From Batkoa obscura (taxonomy: Eukaryota), in assembly GCA_030770535.1 (NCBI GenBank), contig JASVEC010000010.1, positions 868,001 to 932,000 of the forward strand: 64,000 nucleotides of DNA, written 5' to 3'. Position 1 is the first letter of the stretch. Every line of letters begins with the position of its first letter. Shown one piece after another: positions 50,682 through 62,285 of this stretch. A model generated the notes under the pieces. It had not been told where the DNA came from and did not search any database. It was given only the letters and a program-made list of their open reading frames with translations. The translations under genes and the position numbers were made by a program.

Positions 50682-53600
50682 CTAACTAAGCATATCTTCT
50701 CTATCAACCACATTATTATTCATATTACTTCCATCTTCCAATTGTGAAAAGTTCAAGTAATGAGCAGGTCTATGACGTTCGTCATAAAATGGTAAAGGTA
50801 CTTCTAAGCTAAGATGATATTCCTTATCAGGCTGATGAGAAGCACCCTGGAAATTATAATTCCAAATTGAATCAACAGGTGAAAGGAAAAATCCGAAAAA
50901 CTTGTCTGAAAGTAACATTTGAATACGCTCATAATGGGTTGGTAAGTATCCTGCTGGGTTAGTACCGCTTAGATCTTTGTTGGATGCTCCCCACTCATTA
51001 CCTGATGGTGTTACTTTGTAACAAGTGAGTGAACAAGAACCTGGTGTAAATGCACAGGTAATAATTACTGAAGTATCGATATCCCAACCTGGATAAGAGC
51101 CAAGTAATTTAGCATGTGTAGTAACGTCTTGTGGTGAAAGATGGGGTAACTCATTTGGCAGAGTATGGATCCAGCCTAAAGGTTCAAGGTCATTCAGCTG
51201 CTCATGTTCTGGTGGATTATTTGGAAGATGCACCATTTGGTGAGTACCCCATTGAGGCACCATAACTATGGAACGGATCTCTTTAACTTGTGGATTATCT
51301 TTTGGCGAAACACCATACAAAAATCCTGAAATTTGAGTTCGAAGATCAGAAATTATAATAAAACGCTTAAGTAAGTTTTTAGGCAACACATAAGTATACC
51401 CTGAATCCTTTAGATCATCACTAGCAACAAAGATGTGTTGGGTTCTCAATTGGAGATTGGTAGATGAAATAGCTCTTACTCTCCAATCTGTTTTAGAAGA
51501 AAAGGTTTGAGTTTCATACCCAGTTGTGGTAGTAGTAATAATTTCGTCTCCATGAATATTATGAGTTTTAGTGGTCACTGCCGTCAGTTGGCTTTGTTCT
51601 TTAGCTTGCTTTTCGATTTCAGCAATTTGTTGACGTTGAAGCGAAGGAGCTGAAATTTCCATACCAAGGATAATATCACGGATTTCAGGTTGAGTCAAAG
51701 AAGCAACGTTAACATTATTCTTTTTACCATAGTCTGCAAGGATAAGATCTTTTAAGGCAACCTCCACCTTAATCCATTCATCATCTGGTAAAGTGGGCCA
51801 GATATGATTTGCTTCAGTGATTGTATTCTTATCAGGACGAAGAATCATTTTAGTCTTATCATTATTCACATGAAGTGCTCTTAAAATCAAAATCAAACGG
51901 AAGAAAGCAGTATATGAGGAAATCGTCGTTAGGAAATTATCATAAAGATTAAACAGACACATCATTGGCTCATTCGCTTTAAGGATAAGATCTCCAAACT
52001 TCTCTACTTTAAGACAAGCTTGGAAAGGTAATTGTAACTCAGAACCTTTGATCACAATATTGGGGAAATCTAAAAGATGAACCTCAAGTGGATCCAACAT
52101 ACCCTTACGAGTAACAATGATTTGTCTTGGTTGTTCTTCCACTGGAAGTGAACGAATAAGAGCAGCTACTTCTTCAGCAGTCTTCCACTTGGCTAATTGG
52201 CCAAGACGTTTTTGTCCAGCCCATACCGAAGTATGAATAATCTTAAGGAAGAGATCACCATTACGTGGGTTGAAAATAAAGATAGCACCATTGATAGGTT
52301 TTGTGGTTAAATTACCTTCAAATGTCTTATGGATGGTAACGCGATAAACATTAGTATCATCCACAAACCAAATAATTTGATTTGAGAATAATTCACCGTA
52401 ATTTGTTGAGTTAAGGTATGGTTCGGTTGGTTCAGATGAATACAATTGCACACCTTTACGAATACGTTCACGGAGTACATAGAGAGCAGGATTAGCTTTA
52501 ATAATCTTACCCATGGCTTGCTGTGTAAGTGGCTTAAGCCCAGGGAACCAATTACCATAAGCAGAATAGAGATTGTAAGCAAGATCAACACCAATCATCA
52601 TACCAGTAGGTGAAGGGTAGATACTCATATTATCTGTAGTATAATCTAAGAACTTGGCACGAGTGTAACGTTCAACATCATGAGAGTCAAAGTCACCCCA
52701 GCGTAATTGGATATCAATCCAGAATTTTTGAATAGTACCATTATCCATTGAATCTTTATTATCATTCAAAAGGGAAGGTCTGGATACACCCCATTTATAA
52801 CTAGCAAACAAGAGAATATCCGCACATGAACTGTTCATTTTATAACTTTTACGTGGATGGATCGTTTCTTTTTGTACTGACTCAATTTGCAAGGCTTCGG
52901 ATTCTTGGTCAAACACTTGCACCATATCCATCACCAATGCTTCGTGGATTTTTTGCCACAAATGTGCACGGAAAATTTGAATCAAGGAAATTTTAAGTGT
53001 TGGGATTTTACCATGCATAAAAATACCTGTTAAATCAAGTTGTACTTGGAAACCAACATACACATTTGAATTGTGGACAACGGCATTATTACCAAGTAAA
53101 AAGAGCTTGTCGGAATCCTCGTCTAAAGTTATACCACAATATTGGCCTAGAGTTCCAGCTGTTTTAACAACATTAAATCTATATTCAACTGGTAAATATT
53201 GAACAGCGATTGGGGCCTCCCTGCGTTTGCGATCAATTGATGAGAGACTGAGTACTTTAGTTAAAGCACTGCAAGGCACAAACGTTACGCAGGACTCAAA
53301 GCCATTATTAGTTTCATGATTTGAAACAGAATATTTGATACCAAGGGAGCGAGCTAAAGCTAAGGCACCAGTAACAATGTTTTGGTGTATTGAAGTAAAT
53401 ACTACTTTTTGGTATTTTTCTCTGGCTTCTTTGAAATCATTGTATCGGGTCAACTCCATCTTATTTTCAAGCTCTTTATCTTCTGGATTTGGATTAACAA
53501 CTTCACCATCTGAATCAATTAAACCAGCCAAGAGATTCTCACGGACAGATATAGATTCAGTAAAAAACCATGTTGGTACAACCTTAGGTTGAGATCTTTT

Positions 53601-56600
53601 CATATTGAGTTGGCACATCAAATTCCATATTTTATTTGTTTTAATTTCTTTATTAACATTCACTTCTTCAGATACTAACTCTCCAATGTTTAATGCTTCA
53701 GCTCCGATGTTATGATATATTGCTCTAACACGTTTCATTTGACTTATATAGTCTTTATTGTCAGCATTCTTTTCTGCTGTTCTATCGCCGGCAATCCATA
53801 AACCAACAAGCCAGGCAACATTGTTTACTTCGCTAGCAGGCAAGCCTTCTTTTTTACATATTTCTTCAAATTTATTATTTCCAAGCAATACTGGTGCTAC
53901 AAGCTGGTAAGTTAATTGACGGATACTTTCATCCACAAATGAGTATAATTGTGTCTCAAGTTCCCAAGTAATGGTTGATTTACTCAAGTTGATTAAATTG
54001 TCTCTAAATCCTTTTGCAGCCTCGAATGTATTTGCTTTAGAGTTCTCATAATCTGATATATGGAACGATTTTTTGATCCAAGCAACCATTTGAATTTCCT
54101 CACCATTAAATTCTCTTGTTACAAGTGAAGTATAATTGATATAGAAGGATTCACCAGTTTGTTCATCTTTAGTCACTTCACCAACAGTCATATGGGTAGT
54201 CAGATGTAATAAATGCCTAGAATTACTGGTATACTTAATAAGATCTAATCCCTCTTCATTACTTGACTTTTCTTGGTCATGATGTACTTCGCAAACCTCA
54301 TACATAGTATCTTGTCCTGAGTGAACCCCAGTTACCTTCCTTGGCTTTGAGTCCATACCCAATACATTGTCTCCAATTTTAATGTCTTTAATAGCACGAA
54401 TAGACCCATCAGCCATGTATACAGGAGTAGAAGGAGCAAAGCACCTGTTGATCGTAGGTGACCACCAAAGAGTAAAACGACGATTTGGAATTTGATTCAA
54501 ACCAGATCTCTGTGCATTTGTGAGCTTCTTGTATTTCATACTTTCTTCGAATCCAGAGTTATGTACTACCATACTATCTGATCTTAAGAATCTTTGATTA
54601 CCGTCAACTAAGAAACCGTAATATTCTTGAGGTTCAGTCATTTTAATTGAAACAATTGGAACAAAGAATTCCTTGATGGCTACTGCATTGGTATCCGAAT
54701 TGATACTATTTTCGGGATTTTCATCAATATATAAAGCTGGATCAGCTTCGACCTTTTCAAAATCTGTTTCATTAATATAAATAAATTCTTCACTTTGATT
54801 AATAGCAACTTTATAAAGAGACCAAATATGCTGAACATGTTGAGGCAATGAAAGTAAATCTCTTACAGTTGTTTCAATTTGGTAAGTTTTAACTGCAGCA
54901 GAAGTTGTTTCTAAATGTTTCAAGAAATTAGCGCCTGCGTCACCTGCTTCTTTTTTAGTTTGAATTTCTTTTTCTCCAACCTTGAAGCTCATAGAGCAGT
55001 ATCCACTATTGTACCAATAGACAGTATAAGAAGATGAATCTTCGCTCCAGGACATAACCGCCTTATTTGAAGATGCTAAGCATAAAATATGATTACCAGT
55101 AACAGTTAAAGCTTCGCCAACACGGGGTAAAATTTCATATAATGGTGCAACGCCTTGAACGACTTCCTTAATATTGCGTGGTAATTGATCATCACCCATT
55201 AGTTTATCATTCACACTAACATCTTTAGCTAATTTTATAGATCCATCTTGGAGCATAAGTGGAGTAGCACCAGAGAAACAAGCTTTTTCCCAAAACAGAC
55301 CTTCCCAAGTAGGGAAGTAAGTACCTTTAAACAATGTATGTTCTAAAATACCTTCAACACCACCCAAGGCTTGAATCATATCAGTACGATAATTATTTAG
55401 ATTCCAAAGTTTACCATCGTGGCGTTGATGGGTCCACCAGAATGGATTATTTTTGAGTATTTGGTACTGTTTGAAATCAGTACGAACACGCCACCCTTTA
55501 TCATAGGCAAGGGTATGTCGATCCTTTTGGAATAAGGTATTAATTCTAGGGATACCTCGATCCCAACTATCTTCCAAATCTTCAAGAGTAAGTCGACGAT
55601 TTTGTGCTGTAGCTTCTTGACGTTTCAAAGCATATTCTGCCCATACACGTTGCGAATCAATAAACTCAGATTCCCAAGGTTGAAGATAACGAAATAAATT
55701 AGGAATCAAGGTATCTTCATCATGGGACATACCAGATCTAAAATGAGTGATACCAGTTTCAGTTTGACGTGACCATCTAAGGTCGGATTGTGGGATAAGT
55801 ACATGGCCCATAGACAACATACCTAGACCACCCAATTCCTTTGGACAATTATGACCAATTAAAAAGTCACCATGACAGAATAATTGTGATTGTCCTTTTT
55901 CTACTTGGAAACCATAATACTCATCAACTGCTTCAGCTTGGCTGGAGATCTCAAAGATACGATAATTGACTTTTGGAATGGCTGATTTCATACTTGCGAG
56001 TTTGACAAATTTACAAGGCAACACATCTAAATCGCTACTTAAATACACTTTTCCTACATACTCAGTAGAATCTTTGCTTTTAGTCTTTGTAGCAATAGTA
56101 GATAAACCAAGGGATCGACCCAACTCATAGACTAATTTCAATACGGGCTCATTTGAACCAAGGCTTTTAATAAAAACATACCCATCATCTTGAACTTGAC
56201 CACTTGAATCAATTAAACCTGCAAGTAAAGCACGACGAACATAGCCAGGCTCTTGTACAAAACGTTCGATTTCACTGTAATCATTAATTGTACTGTGATC
56301 TATGCACATCTTTGTTAGTAAAGCCTTAAATATGTCGATATCGATGTTCTTATTGGTTGAAGCATTTGATTTTGTAAATCCAGGGCTACCAAGGTGTGCT
56401 CCGATTGCCCAAGCGTAATCTTCAGCAGAATCCTTATTAAGCTTGTTTTTAAAGCTATGGCAAGAATGTAATAAACTTGGTATGCTTCTATTTTTGCTTC
56501 CAATCGGCCATTCTTCGATCGAAGTACTATATCTCATCATACATGGTAAAACTTTGGTTCCTGTTTTTATCATTTGTGATCTGTATTTATTGTATTCACT

Positions 56601-59600
56601 TACGCTTACAATCCATTCATTAGAATTTGACAAACCTTCAATGACATTCATAATCACTTCATCAATATCATTTTCATGTTTAATATACGTTGCATAATCA
56701 AATTCTACCAACTTTTCGATTTCAAATGGACGGATCAATTTAAGCATGGAATCGAATTTAAGCTTCCAATAATATACTTTATAAACTACGTTGGATTGGT
56801 TGGCTTTAACTTCTTCAATATCATAAAAGCACTGTACAACTCTTGAAACCTTTGGAATTTGTAAAACTAACAAATGGTTTTCATTACATAGAAATCCAGG
56901 CTCAAATAACAGCTCTTCATTATAGGCACAATTTAAAGCCTTTGAAAGTTTAACTCTATATAATGGTGCAGTACCTGAAACTAAATGTTCTACTCTACGG
57001 ATTTTACCATCATCACCAAGCACTTGGTTTCCAACTTTGATTTCTTCAATTGACTTTGTGGTACCATTAGCTAAACGTATAGGCATCCCCTTACCATAAC
57101 AATAGAATACAACAGGTGGGAAACGACTAGGCATTTTAGAATTAAGACCAATTTTTACACGAGTTTGAATCTTTGATTCACTCTTAACCAAAAGATCTAA
57201 GATTTCACGAGTATGTACTACTGCTTCACGATAATATGTCATTAATCCAATCAAAGCTGTATTCCATTTGTTGACAATCTTTGAAAAGGTAGTGGATCCA
57301 GAGGACATTAATATTTGACGGATACGATTATTGAAACGCTGGATAGACTCATCATCTACCCTTAAAAAGGCTTGTGCAGTACGTTCTTTAGTTTGTTCAT
57401 TAATTAAATTCCATACACCATCTTTAAGTGAAAATGTTTCTTCCTTTGCACGAATCTTTGGCAAAATTCGAACTTCAAATCCACACATGGAGAATAAAAG
57501 ATTGGGATTATCTCTTGAGTAAACACTCACAAATGTTTCTTCCCAATCAAGGGTTGTAACTGATCTTGGTAAACGATTTTTCATATCCCAAAAGGTAGCA
57601 CGACCTAAATTGACATCGTGCTTCATCAAACGCATTCTACAATCACGTGGCCAGCATTTTTTGTTATTGTAACCAACAATATTTTCATTATTAGGATCCG
57701 GATGCTCTGTTAAATATCTTTGAATCAAATCTCTTGATTCATCAGCACTGAATCTGAAAAGTATATAAATACGATCTATATAACGAGAGTAAAGTCTTAT
57801 TGGATGTTTAGTTTCAGTAGGAACATCTCTAAATTGCAAAAAGTCATTTGGGAGTTGAGGCGGTCCAGCCATTTCAGATGCTCTTTGTAAACCAAGGAGC
57901 AATAAATCCAAGACTAAGCCCCAGAACTGATAAATGAACGAAGCAAATTGTAAACCACGAATTAAACCATAAGAATTTAAATGATTCATATCCTTATAAT
58001 TAAGAACAACATTATTTTTTGCTGACATATAATCGGCTAAATTATGATCCAAGATTAAACGTAAAAGTCTATTCAAAACTGTAATATCCACTTTCTCATA
58101 TACTTTGTTAAGCCTTGTTTCTACCATTACATTACATTCACCTTCAGATGTTTCCCAAATATCAGTAAGATTGTTAATTCCTTGACACCATTTGTAAGTA
58201 AGCAATGGAGGAGGTTCATTATCTGATGGTTTAATCCATGCTGGGAAGAGATGACGCTTATCAGCTTCATACCAAAGATATTGATCAAGGTAGGCATCAG
58301 TGATCTTTTCCATTGGTTCCACGTCATAAACCGGGATAAGATGAGAGTATAAATCCATGAACTCAATTCCTACTTCTTTAAATGCTCTTTGGGTCAAAAG
58401 TAAACGTTTAATTCTAGAAAGAGCTTCATGAGGATTATCATAAGCTTGTTCAATTAAACCGAGTTCTTCACGTTGAGATTGATTCAAACGTCCTTTTACA
58501 GAGTACGCTTCTCTTAAGCGTTCAAGAGCAAGGATCAACAATTTGGTATCGTGTTTATATGAGAGTGGTGGGAAAGGAATAGGAGTGAATTTTCTAGATT
58601 CGAGCCAGTGTACTGTTGAAGTGAAGATTGCAACAGCTTCTTCAGGAGAAATATAAGGACCATCTTTAAGATAATTATGTTGTCTTTCTTGCTCAGCTTT
58701 AAGCCACAATCTGGTCAAACGTCCTAAATTCTTTTTGCAAACTGTTTTATCAACTGTTGCTCCTCTACGGATACGTTCACGATTATAATGGGCTACACTG
58801 GTCCACCAATCAGCTTTGGATTTGACATAACGGAGGATCATATTTTCTATAGGGGTAGGCAGACCTGGTACTTTCCATGGAATATTGGCTTTCCAACAAT
58901 TGTGGGCAACAATGAAATTTCCAAGTAAAAAGAGAGGGTCTTTACCATCTAACTCGAAACCAAAATATTCACCTTTACTTGAGACTTCAGTGACATCAAA
59001 TTGGTTATTGTTGTTGTCTTCCATAGCTACACTTTCTCCTTTCAGTTTGTTTATAAAAGGAAGAGTTGAAAATTCCCTGCCAAAAATATTAATCTGTTCC
59101 TCCCTATTTGATACAAATAAACCAAGAGATCTTGCAACTTGTATTACTAATTGTTTTAAAATAGGACTGATCTCATTGACTTTGATTTTAAGCTTTAAAT
59201 CAAGTTGATCGATATTGAATGGCAATGATTCTAATATACCGGCTAATATATTCGAGCGGAATAACTTTGATTGGTTCATAACACATGAAGCTAATAAATC
59301 AGAAGAAGGAAGTTCTTTCAATTTGCTTATACAATCCCATGCCATACTTCCAACACTTATATTACTATTGGGTTCTTTTATTCTAGTAAATGAAGCAAAT
59401 TGCTGACCAATAGCATAAGCTACCGAGTTGATCGGTGCTGGAGTTTGATCTAATTCACCAGATGCTTTAAAATGTAAATTATGGATAACTTGTTCTAAAT
59501 CTAATTCTGAAGAATATGGGAATTCGTTGACAGATTGACGAATCATAGTGAAAGTAAAAGAGGAGTGAAGAAGAGTTTTGGAAAATTTAACATAATTAAG

Positions 59601-62285
59601 TGAAGAAACTTCCCATCCAGCATTCAAAATGGTTGAATGATCTTTTTGGAGAGCTTTAATTGCACTTGGCTTGTCTTCAAATCTATATATTGTGACTGGG
59701 TGATTTTGTTTTAATTTAATGGTAGAACTGTCACCCCACGTGTATACTGATCCAACAACAGACGGTGCTTCAAACCCAAGTTCTTCATTATATCTGATTT
59801 GAGGATGATAAAATGCAGCATATTTCTTGTTGGAATCTCTAGACATAATTATATTACCTGAAGTAGAGCAATTAAGAACCAAAGTATGTTCATCATTACA
59901 TGTAAATAATTCTTCCTGAGTTTCTTTATCGCTGAACTTATACAAAGTTGAATGACCATACATTGTATCCTTCACTTTTTTTGGTTTTTGATCTTTACCC
60001 AAAACTCTATCCCCGATCTCAATATTTTCTACGCATTTTAAGTTACCATCAGCCATCATAACTTTAGTTCCACGAGCAAAACAACGCCATGCTTCACTGA
60101 GATGCTGTAAAATGGTTTTAGATTTATTGGCAGAAATACCTTCAGGCATCATATCTGTAATATCATGCATTACTGCAGCACGAAGTTCGAGGTCATAGTG
60201 GGATTCTACTCTCTGCTTAGTAACCGTTTTAGCAATACCTTTAGAATGACGTCCTTCAAATTGACGAGCAAGTAAATTACCAAGCCAGCGTTCGAGAAGT
60301 GGGACAATACCACGTAAGAAAAATAGCCATACTCTCCATCCTGGGGCCCAAAAACCACAACCAGGACCTTTGCCGACTGGCCCAGTATTGAATCTATAGT
60401 AGATCAAATGTTTTAAATCCTTGGTGAGACGGACTTGTCTCATTAATTTATACTTATAACGATACATACCAGTAAGCTGACCAACATGGGCAAAGATATA
60501 CTGAAGACCATCAGCTAATTGGAAAGCATCAACATTGCCTAAACGATATTGTACATGTGAATCAACCACAAGCTTAGTAAGCCTTAAAATTTCACGACAA
60601 AGATGGAAAGCATTTCCGAAACGAGATTTCTTACGTTCTTTAGTTGTTAAAGTTTTAATAGGCTTTAAATTGAAATTATAATCAAGATGGAGATAATTCA
60701 AATTTTTACGATGAATTAATAAATTCAGCATATTGTAACCTTGACGACACACTTGTAACCCTGCTTCTACCCAATCAAGATCAGTAATTTGGAAAAACTT
60801 GGTTGCTTTCAATTGACGGAATAAGTACTTTTTGTTTAACGCTTTAGGTTTACGATGCTTCAAGACATTCAAAACATAACATTTTAGTAACTTTTGGTAA
60901 GAAACACGGACCTTTACGGGTTGATCTGGTGGACAATGCTCTAAGTACCAATTTTTGACAAGTGGGATATCTTGAGCACGTCTAGTGTTACCTGAACGCT
61001 TATCAAAAGGATGAGGGGCCCAGTAAAGAGCAATAGCATTTGAAGTATTATCAGTGTAAAGTGGAGCATCTTCAAAGAAAGGAGTTACATTTTCTGGTAA
61101 AGAGAATTCGAGATCTTCATCTTCATCACCAAATATACTTTGTTCATGTAATCCAGAGATGCTTTTATCTTCGAAATCACGTGTAGAAATTGGATTAATA
61201 ATAGGATCAAAATAAAATGTAGGTAATTGAGGGTCATCATTACGAATGTAAACAACAGTTGGATAATGATACCATGAAACATGAACTGCTCTTGGTAAGG
61301 AATTATATAAAAATGGAAAAGCAATCTTATACTCAGTACGAATTTGTTGACGAATGATAATCTTATTAATATCATTAAACTCATTCCAATCTTCATCAGC
61401 TGGGTCTAAATCTCTATATAAAGGCTCAAACTTAGGGCCACCTGGAATAGCTAAATTAAGTGATTTAGCAGTTATAAAAGAATTGACATCAAAAAGATAA
61501 AAGTAATTCTTATCATTGAGATCAGATAAAAGTTGATGTGCTAAACGGTACAACGCTGACATGATTGGAAGATCAAGGTTCCATTTACGATAAGTATCGC
61601 CATTGATGAATTTTGTGCCAAGGAGTGGTTTATGGTCATAAAACCATTCATAAACTGCGCTATCTTCTTCTGGATCTAACTCCATTTGAATAGGCTCAAG
61701 AGGATCGACATCTAATATATTGTCACCATAATCTAATGGAGGTTCTTCATCATCAAAAGGAGGGAAACGCATACGTTTAAAATGACGACGGTCTCTTTTT
61801 TCTCTGCGCATCATAATCCACATGGTACCCCATTGAGCAAGGTAGATTGGCTCAACCACACGAGGTACCTCATTAACAAAAGTGATAGCACCAGTAATAT
61901 GATACAAAACTGGGACTTCTCTTTCTTGTTCCCAGGGCATAGGCATGTTTTCTAATAACTTTAAAACGGCATGAGGGATATATTTAAGGGCACCCAAATA
62001 GATACGCTTATCATGGCGAAATTTTTTCGAAGACATATCACCATGGTCTTTAATGATTTTTCTAACGTGCTCCGGTGGCATTTTTTGCTTTTCTTGTTCA
62101 GCGAACCCGAATTTTCTTTTGTCGCCATAACGTTTTGAGTTCATTTGTTGCCATCTCTTAGCCTTCTCTTTGATTTTTTCGAGAAATCTAGCATTTTGAG
62201 GATCTAAAAGGTTATCCTCAGAAGCAGAAACTTGATAAGGATAATAATTTGAATTATTAGGAGCAGAATCTCCCTGTTCAGTCAT
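50682..62285 (-). CDS. PRP8: Pre-mRNA splicing factor Prp8 precursor (3867 aa) containing four inteins; mature ~2355 aa
   Basis: Continuous Prp8 homology from [15 protein letters not shown] to the Jab1/MPN region LGWIHT; four in-frame insertions, each bounded by Cys...His-Asn; ATG of MTEQG at 62285. Confidence 0.98.
53070..54443 (-). mobile_element. Prp8 intein 4 (458 aa) at [15 protein letters not shown]; full-length LAGLIDADG, PI-SceI-like
   Basis: Starts [13 protein letters not shown]; block [43 protein letters not shown]; ends [24 protein letters not shown], +1 Ser. Confidence 0.96.
54558..55280 (-). mobile_element. Prp8 intein 3 (241 aa mini-intein) at the canonical FWEKA|SGFEES site
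   Basis: Starts [13 protein letters not shown]; block B TVTGNHIL; ends [22 protein letters not shown], +1 Ser; no LAGLIDADG motif. Confidence 0.96.
55848..57101 (-). mobile_element. Prp8 intein 2 (418 aa) at [15 protein letters not shown]; partially degenerate LAGLIDADG domain
   Basis: Starts [13 protein letters not shown]; block [26 protein letters not shown]; ends YYGFQV..FLIGHN, +1 Cys. Confidence 0.95.
58899..60083 (-). mobile_element. Prp8 intein 1 (395 aa) at [15 protein letters not shown]; degenerate LAGLIDADG domain
   Basis: Starts [13 protein letters not shown]; block B TCNDEHTL; ends [19 protein letters not shown], +1 Cys; remnants AYAIGQ, LAGILES, ARSLG. Confidence 0.95.

What the first reader, a model, noticed from the sequence alone, without database searches (positions are those of the whole stretch)
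50682..62285. Prp8 carrying four inteins in one polypeptide
Seen: four in-frame insertions (395, 418, 241 and 458 aa; 1512 aa, ~39% of the precursor). Each starts with Cys, has a block-B His, ends His-Asn and is followed by Cys or Ser. Removing them restores uninterrupted conserved Prp8 sequence (EAWR-CWKAN, VVFY-CPKE, WEKA-SGFE, TINR-SNVY), with exteins of 734+599+189+38+795 = 2355 aa. Known: most intein-bearing fungal Prp8 genes have a single intein at the FWEKA|SGFE site, and multi-intein Prp8s are uncommon. Inference: this essential spliceosome core protein needs four protein-splicing reactions to mature, making it an intein hotspot. Some of the three non-canonical sites may be undescribed; I cannot verify that here.
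Basis: partly seen in the sequence, partly recalled or inferred. Interest (0 to 1): 0.95.

Follow-up and report, generated by a model that had tools for sequence, protein, structure and literature searches.

The report
Fungal Prp8 with four inteins
A fungus's core RNA-splicing protein Prp8 is encoded with four inteins (inserts that likely cut themselves out of the protein), three at known spots and one at a spot we found in no paper, and database proteins of related fungi carry up to ten, twice the published record.

Summary
Confirmed. One 3867-aa ORF encodes Prp8 with four Hint-domain inserts (395, 418, 241, 458 aa), each Cys...His-Asn followed by Cys or Ser; the 2355 aa of extein run on without a gap against human and yeast Prp8. 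An independent DNA contig (94.5% alike) holds all four; RNA-type contigs cover them and bridge junctions. Three sites are published (b, e, a; yeast +1 792, 1390, 1579). The fourth (TINR|SNVY, yeast 1617) is in none of the site lists I could read; it is also filled in 20 of 162 homologues, its intein groups with V-ATPase (VMA1/PI-SceI-type) inteins, and +1 is Ser in every filled allele but Ala in 121 of 131 others. Four is no record: Anaeramoeba Prp8 has five in print, and 32 of 162 homologues have four or more (Mycoemilia ten, 22 sites in all), which nine paper searches did not find described. The matching NCBI protein (Neoconidiobolus thromboides) has the inteins cut out as 'introns'. Endonucleases look degenerate. 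Splicing itself is untested. The scan's notes held no earlier multi-intein Prp8.

The parts
50682..62285 (-). prp8 gene, one open frame, 3867-aa precursor
   Evidence: all Prp8 Pfam domains from PRO8NT to PROCT
60084..62285 (-). Extein 1 (aa 1-734), ends EAWR
58899..60083 (-). Intein 1, 395 aa, published site b (yeast +1 792); both LAGLIDADG motifs degenerate
   Evidence: Pfam Hom_end_hint 6.7e-25; same site as Batrachochytrium P0042 and Capsaspora 'B' intein P0032; motifs
57102..58898 (-). Extein 2 (599 aa), CWKAN...VVFY
   Evidence: yeast 792-1389, human 719-1317
55848..57101 (-). Intein 2, 418 aa, published site e (yeast +1 1390); endonuclease remnant, both catalytic acid positions hold Ser
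   Evidence: Pfam Hom_end_hint 1.8e-21, Hom_end 1.8e-5; same site as Capsaspora 'E' intein and A. ignava P0031; motifs
55281..55847 (-). Extein 3 (189 aa), CPKE...WEKA
   Evidence: yeast 1391-1578
54558..55280 (-). Intein 3, 241 aa, mini-intein at the common fungal site a (yeast +1 1579); nearest Rhizopus microsporus and Batrachochytrium site-a inteins
54444..54557 (-). Extein 4 (38 aa), SGFE...TINR, yeast 1579-1616, which holds the '1585 loop'
   Evidence: loop named in PMC6805012 passage
53070..54443 (-). Intein 4, 458 aa, site TINR|SNVY (yeast +1 1617, human 1545), not among the published sites read here; VMA1/PI-SceI-type; second LAGLIDADG motif intact, first altered
   Evidence: PI-SceI E 2.3e-42 end to end; 35-44% identical to 20 allelic inteins; tree
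50682..53069 (-). Extein 5 (795 aa) and stop codon
   Evidence: yeast 1617-2404

Best explanation
The gene encodes Prp8 with four unrelated inteins in one open frame, and the 3867-aa precursor likely matures by four separate cis protein-splicing reactions into an ordinary 2355-aa Prp8. Each insert has the class 1 set (Cys1, block-B His, His-Asn, +1 Cys/Ser; shown), so the standard four-step chemistry is inferred. The four came in separately, each by homing into its own site: each is closer to inteins at the same site in other species than to its neighbours (shown). Their endonucleases now look broken or lost (motifs shown, inactivity inferred), so they are likely fixed passengers kept only because splicing is needed for viability. 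The intein at the unlisted site belongs to the V-ATPase (VMA1/PI-SceI) intein lineage (shown by tree and alignment); a jump between the two host genes in an ancestor is inferred, and the Ser at +1 likely travels with the intein, since empty alleles mostly have Ala, which could not splice.
For: Motifs and Pfam Hint hits 4 of 4. Extein numbering continuous with human and yeast Prp8. Best BLAST hit of each insert among the collected inteins is at the same site (bits 105, 218, 157, 342) against at most 81 between the window's own four; in the full-length tree each falls in its own site's group (support 86, 98, 97, 98). Run X10: one 15,383-nt contig spans 50563-62956 with 683 differences, 33 small gaps and no joint listed; run X8 covers 30 of 30 bins. 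Four RNA-guessed runs hold 0.91-0.94 of the words of a stretch that is 62% intein. X1 covers all four inserts, with a 0-difference contig across the end of intein 1; the recorded RNA run X9 has low-depth contigs across the end of intein 1 and the start of intein 2. Intein 4 aligns end to end with PI-SceI (E 2.3e-42); the 12 site-1617 inteins tested group with 2 VMA inteins and one other on a stem with support 100. +1 Ser in 21 of 21 filled alleles, Ala in 121 of 131 scored as empty, among them 4 Coemansia nested in the intein-bearing clade.
Against: No splicing or cleavage was measured. X1 is only guessed to be RNA, contigs drop rare variants, and the joint table was cut (24 rows not shown), so a minor spliced-out form is not excluded. 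The NCBI protein P0052 models all four inserts as removed at RNA level. Intein 1 is very diverged (25% to its best allelic hit, long branch; in the splicing-domain tree it sat with Anaeramoeba rows, support 91). Both trees are quick searches without bootstrap; only 2 VMA inteins were in the tree and the root is unknown, so the direction of the jump is not shown. Six empty alleles also have Ser at that +1, so invasion of alleles that already had Ser is possible.
Confidence: 0.9

Rival explanations
1. The inserts are spliceosomal introns removed from the mRNA, as the public gene model has it.
For: P0052 (2331 aa, named Neoconidiobolus thromboides FSU 785 by NCBI) is 99.8% identical to the exteins and lacks most of all four inserts; GT and AG letters lie near the cut points.
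Against: That model spoils conserved Prp8 at all four junctions (EAWRCFAPNIP for EAWRCWKANIP; VFYSIPKE; WEKALHNSGF; 19 intein residues left after TINR). The inserts keep frame without a stop over 241-458 codons in a gene of about 35% GC and carry full Hint motifs. The joints shown for X1 that skip them all come from one contig that differs at 228 of 1252 listed letters, another organism's intein-free Prp8.
Confidence: 0.03
2. The inteins are kept because they regulate the host: conditional splicing (metal, redox or heat) would pause Prp8 maturation under stress, and four inteins would sharpen that switch.
For: Copper and zinc inhibit the Cryptococcus Prp8 intein (PMC6805012 abstract). The inteins are kept after endonuclease decay, also in a strain or species 5.5% apart; two of them bracket the 38-residue stretch with the 1585 loop.
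Against: Retention needs no benefit: only exact loss is viable. Occupancy is patchy, relatives differ in which sites are filled, and most eukaryotes do without. Nothing here tests regulation.
Confidence: 0.12
3. The four arose by copying of one intein within the gene.
For: One such case was proposed for Anaeramoeba flamelloides sites b and d (PMC10710043 passage).
Against: The four are 23-26% alike over full length or alike only over short stretches, and each groups with its own site in other species.
Confidence: 0.02
4. Chimeric or mis-assembled contig.
For: None found.
Against: A contig from another study spans the whole gene with all four inserts (X10), a second DNA run covers every bin (X8), and the same four sites are filled together in Coemansia P0001 and P0014.
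Confidence: 0.01

Closest known systems
Anaeramoeba ignava BMAN Prp8 with five inteins (Gallot-Lavallee et al. 2023, PMC10710043; passages read)
   Same: Several inteins in one Prp8; sites a, b and e shared (sites named in the text; e and a also seen in its fragment P0031).
   Different: A metamonad with over 100 inteins per genome; has site d and AKWK|TAEE, and no intein at TINR in P0031 or in A. flamelloides P0060. Its Dataset S1 and appendix could not be read.
Prp8 intein sites a-g (Monier et al. 2013, PMC3749507; Green et al. 2018, PMC5784728; Green et al. 2019, PMC6805012)
   Same: Inteins 1, 2, 3 sit at b, e, a. Capsaspora has three (b, e, f), Batrachochytrium two (a, b).
   Different: TINR|SNVY is not a, b, c (C-extein CLDFPN), d (87 residues after a), e, or f (FLDY|); g is described as N-terminal (its exact place is in a figure I could not see). 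The most in one fungal Prp8 in these papers is two.
Saccharomyces cerevisiae VMA1 intein, PI-SceI (PDB 1dfa)
   Same: Intein 4 aligns over its whole length (458 against 454 aa), including the DNA-recognition part, the second LAGLIDADG motif and the ends.
   Different: Other host gene and site, +1 Ser instead of Cys; first LAGLIDADG motif has one extra residue that displaces the Asp.
Unpublished database proteins of Kickxellomycotina (Coemansia, Kickxella, Dimargaris, Dispira, Mycoemilia, Smittium) and Sorochytrium
   Same: The same four sites are filled in Coemansia P0001 and P0014; site TINR is filled in 17 Coemansia, 1 Kickxella, 1 Sorochytrium, 1 unnamed protein.
   Different: They carry further inteins, up to 9 (Dimargaris) and 10 (Mycoemilia); none of the 162 has exactly these four alone.

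Membership tests
Class 1 (canonical) intein | In-frame insertion whose removal restores the host protein | tested here: met
   4 of 4
Class 1 (canonical) intein | Hint fold sequence at both ends | tested here: met
   Pfam Hom_end_hint above cut-off, 4 of 4; for intein 1 the matched stretch is only aa 1-90, its C-terminal motif is read from the sequence. No structure was predicted.
Class 1 (canonical) intein | Cys/Ser at 1, block-B His, His-Asn end, Cys/Ser/Thr at +1 (feature list recalled; also in PMC6805012 passage) | tested here: met
Class 1 (canonical) intein | Insert kept in the mRNA | tested here: met
   contigs only, X1 guessed RNA, X9 recorded RNA at low depth; moderate strength
Class 1 (canonical) intein | Self-excision and extein ligation | not testable with these tools
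   needs a reporter or peptides
Mobile (homing) LAGLIDADG intein | Two intact LAGLIDADG motifs with the catalytic acid at position 8 (rule recalled) | tested here: not met
   Intein 1 none, intein 2 Ser at both, intein 3 no endonuclease, intein 4 second motif intact (LAGLIDSDG) and first altered (LVGLWIAGD); none of 21 site-TINR inteins has the acid at that place in the first motif
Mobile (homing) LAGLIDADG intein | Cleavage of the empty allele | not testable with these tools
   needs an assay
Published Prp8 sites a-g | Inteins 1, 2, 3 at the same junction as named b, e, a inteins | tested here: met
   P0032, P0042, P0031 junctions matched to the labelled inteins in the PMC5784728 table
Published Prp8 sites a-g | Intein 4 at one of a-g or at the Anaeramoeba AKWK site | tested here: not met
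   a-f and AKWK placed elsewhere; g excluded only by its description as N-terminal
VMA1/PI-SceI-type intein lineage (intein 4) | Full-length similarity and grouping with V-ATPase A inteins rather than other Prp8 inteins | tested here: met
   179 bits to VMA P0164 against at most 89 to other Prp8 sites; support 100 (2 VMA rows, quick tree)

The most novel reading that the evidence does not exclude
Prp8 of the Zoopagomycota is the most intein-loaded protein yet seen: this gene is a modest member of an undescribed hotspot with up to ten inteins in one chain (Mycoemilia scoparia, 6458 aa, 64% intein) and at least 15 unlisted sites. New sites are founded by inteins jumping from other genes (here a VMA1-type intein) and bringing their own +1 nucleophile, which rewrites conserved residues of the spliceosome core; gene predictors hide part of this by calling inteins introns.
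Probability: 0.6. Interest if true: 0.75.

Novelty: new variant of a known kind. Interest (0 to 1): 0.55.

Why it matters
How inteins reach new sites is open, because homing only copies them to the same site. Site TINR gives a test case: a VMA1-type intein in Prp8, present in three distant fungal groups, with filled and empty alleles that differ at the +1 residue. The homologues fetched here raise the count per protein from five (published) to ten and the Prp8 sites from eight to over twenty, in culturable fungi, which makes the cost and order of many splicing events in one essential protein testable. The public model of this very gene drops the inteins as introns, so protein-based intein surveys undercount. 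The four inteins of this gene alone are a moderate result: known chemistry, three known sites.

Tried and rejected
No whole genome is held for this window, so other inteins of this genome were not counted. NCBIfam gave nothing above cut-off. None of 15 other ORFs of the window has a Hint hit. Read laying covered only the gene and about 1 kb upstream, not neighbouring intron-bearing genes, so X1's RNA nature rests on weak hints: depth falling from the 3' to the 5' end and no cover in one upstream bin where two DNA runs have cover; the tool warns that contig depth cannot rank parts of a gene. X10 was laid to look for empty alleles and has all four inteins; no empty allele of this species was seen. 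'Site 512' is a mis-mapped site-620 intein in a partial record and was dropped, leaving 22 sites. P0121 is truncated and meaningless in the extein tree. P0049 and P0052 were left out; P0020 and P0023 are truncated filled alleles scored there as empty. Searches of the two readable PNAS supplements found none of the terms. A search for a '1615 loop' found no paper, so no structural role is claimed for residue 1617. No structure or complex was predicted.
Full report
Observation. The window holds one ATG-to-stop frame at 50682-62285 (-), 3867 aa. All four pass Pfam's cut-off for the Hom_end-associated Hint family; inserts 2 and 4 also pass for the endonuclease family. The exteins match solved human and yeast Prp8 with numbering that runs on across each junction, giving +1 residues at yeast 792, 1390, 1579, 1617. 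Inserts and exteins have alike GC and GC3 (0.33-0.36 against 0.36-0.40), which gives no sign of a recent arrival.

Organism and the public model. Neighbouring genes are ordinary fungal ones. The exteins are 99.8% identical to P0052, which NCBI names Neoconidiobolus thromboides FSU 785; the next nearest of 162 proteins is 85%. P0052 is 2331 aa and lacks nearly all of the four inserts; it damages conserved Prp8 sequence at all four junctions and starts at a later Met. It reads as a gene predictor's intron calls. One residue differs in extein 5, so the window may be another haplotype or assembly.

Are they in the mRNA, and is the assembly right? Fourteen runs hold part of 53000-60300; eight hold half or more of its words, four RNA-guessed runs 0.91-0.94, although 62% of that stretch is intein. 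Four runs were laid. X10 (DNA, another study) has one contig over 50563-62956 with 683 differences and no joint listed, so a strain or sister species 94.5% alike has all four. X8 (DNA) covers 30 of 30 bins. X1 covers every intein bin and has a 491-nt contig with no difference across the end of intein 1. The joints shown for X1 all come from one 7387-nt contig that differs at 228 of 1252 listed letters, a foreign intein-free Prp8. X9, recorded as RNA, is mostly foreign Prp8 but has low-depth near-identical contigs across two junctions. Limits: contigs only, X1's RNA label is a guess, and the tables of joints and pieces were cut (24 and 300 rows not shown).

Which sites are known. From PMC3749507 (passages and section 17), PMC5784728 (passages, supplement file 2 parts 11-12 and search hits), PMC6805012 (abstract, passages, section 18) and PMC10710043 (passages) I placed the sites on this gene's extein: a = 1522 (WEKA|S), b = 734 (EAWR|C; Batrachochytrium, Capsaspora B), c = 1891 (Spizellomyces C-extein starts CLDFPN), d = 1609 (87 residues after a), e = 1333 (VVFY|; Capsaspora E), f = FLDY| (Capsaspora F), Anaeramoeba's new site = 1856. 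Site g is described as N-terminal; its figure could not be seen. Letters are not used alike: PMC10710043 writes b and d the other way round in one sentence, and the PMC5784728 table labels an Auxenochlorella intein E whose C-extein is that of b; I follow Monier. So inteins 1, 2, 3 are at b, e, a, and intein 4 (1560, TINR|SNVY) is at none. Unseen supplements that could bear on this: Dataset S1, S2 and the appendix of PMC10710043, supplementary figure 1 of PMC3749507, figures of PMC6805012.

How common. Two region searches gave 162 different Prp8-like proteins (ranked by likeness to intein-bearing regions, so biased). Aligning each to the extein and asking for Cys...Asn|Cys/Ser/Thr inserts of 120 aa or more gave 0 inteins in 6, 1 in 98, 2 in 13, 3 in 13, 4 in 13, 5 in 8, 6 in 5, 7 in 2, 8 in 1, 9 in 2, 10 in 1 (11 proteins have further unresolved inserts). 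Of the 32 with four or more, 26 are named Kickxellomycotina, 5 unnamed, 1 A. ignava. Mycoemilia scoparia P0028 has ten (4116 of 6458 aa). There are 22 sites after one mis-map is dropped; six are published ones and one more may be g. Site TINR is filled in 20 of 162 (17 Coemansia, Kickxella, Sorochytrium, one unnamed), plus two truncated records and P0163. The published record is five inteins in one protein. Nine paper searches (listings and abstract starts, plus passages of PMC8778642 and PMC5056185) found no account of Prp8 inteins in Zoopagomycota; subscription journals are not searched.

Origin of the four. Each insert's best hit among the collected inteins is at its own site, and in a tree of 42 full-length inteins each joins its own site group (86, 98, 97, 98; quick search, no bootstrap). 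A 199-row tree of splicing domains agrees for three and leaves intein 1 with long-branch Anaeramoeba rows. So four separate arrivals. Intein 4 aligns with yeast PI-SceI from end to end (E 2.3e-42; inteins 1 and 2 give 7e-18 and 2e-11); among proteins of 803-2290 aa its best hits after one allelic Prp8 are V-ATPase A inteins and kin. The site-TINR group joins two VMA inteins and the intein of P0166 with support 100, apart from all other Prp8 inteins. On the host tree the filled alleles need four changes, at least two forced by strong branches: patchy, by loss or transfer, not resolved.

The +1 residue. At TINR, +1 is Ser in 21 of 21 filled alleles and Ala in 121 of 131 scored as empty; 7 of these have Ser (one a truncated filled allele), and four Coemansia without the intein have Ala. 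The same pattern shows at other unlisted sites (181 Ser against Pro, 946 Ser against Asp, 1439 and 1473 Ser against mostly Gln; the empty set is rich in ascomycetes). The likely reading is that the nucleophile codon comes and goes with the intein; invasion of alleles that already had Ser is the rival.

Mechanism. Shown: frame, motifs, site identity, relatedness, presence in independent DNA and in RNA-type contigs. Inferred from established intein chemistry (recalled; also PMC6805012 passage): N-S acyl shift at Cys1, transfer to the +1 Cys or Ser, Asn cyclisation, acyl shift, four times and independently, since each Hint domain folds by itself. Inteins 3 and 4 are 38 residues apart and bracket the 1585 loop, where a retained intein was modelled to clash with spliceosome parts, so unspliced forms would not work. 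Homing looks lost: intein 3 has no endonuclease, inteins 1 and 2 lack the catalytic acids, intein 4 keeps only the second motif. A regulatory role is possible and untested.

Earlier notes of the scan. One word search found none with all words; three near notes concern introns beside site a and an eIF5B intein. They did not move this reading.

Verdict. Four inteins in Prp8 is below the published record and three sites are known, so 0.95 is too high. What is new as far as I can see is the fourth site with its VMA1-type intein and +1 change, the first multi-intein Prp8 seen here in Entomophthoromycotina, its masking in the public model, and the far larger load in Kickxellomycotina that the follow-up exposed. 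Interest 0.55.

Noticed in passing
P0028 (Mycoemilia scoparia, 6458 aa), P0024 and P0025 (Dimargaris, about 6000 aa), P0022: Prp8 with 10, 9, 9 and 8 intein-like inserts, above the published record of five per protein; 22 sites in 162 proteins, at least 15 in no list read here.
   Followed up: partly
P0052 against window:50682-62285: The NCBI protein for this gene has the four inteins cut out as introns, with wrong residues at each junction and a later start; one further residue differs in extein 5.
   Followed up: yes
Sites 633, 1815, 1688 (extein numbering) in Coemansia, Mycoemilia, Sorochytrium, Auxenochlorella and others; site 892; Coemansia site e: Intein groups that end Gly-Asn, Arg-Asn or Ser/Ala-Asn instead of His-Asn; the Gly-Asn group forms a far-off branch of its own.
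   Followed up: no
P0165, P0168, P0169, P0171 (Podila, Mortierella, Linnemannia): Proteins named V-ATPase subunit A that show only Hint and/or endonuclease Pfam domains and no intein-like ends by my pattern; they may be free-standing VMA-intein derivatives like yeast HO (comparison recalled).
   Followed up: no
P0166 (eukprot, 1241 aa) and P0170 (Cdc48-like, 1553 aa): A VMA-type intein in a protein with arginyl-transferase and UBX Pfam domains; a Cdc48-like ATPase with two related inteins, one in each Walker A motif, close to Prp8 site-a inteins.
   Followed up: no
window:50560-63250, runs X1 and X8: Two alleles are seen at many places, one often shared with X10, which suggests heterozygous or mixed material; both runs cover the inteins.
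   Followed up: no
window:21954-24213 (-): A Dis3-like exonuclease gene split over two long ORFs, as expected for exons; this and the partial glutathione synthase and acyl-CoA oxidase ORFs point to ordinary introns in neighbouring genes.
   Followed up: no
PMC10710043 text; PMC5784728 supplement file 2: Site letters for Prp8 are used inconsistently between papers (b and d swapped in one sentence; 'f' given twice; an Auxenochlorella site-b intein labelled E).
   Followed up: yes
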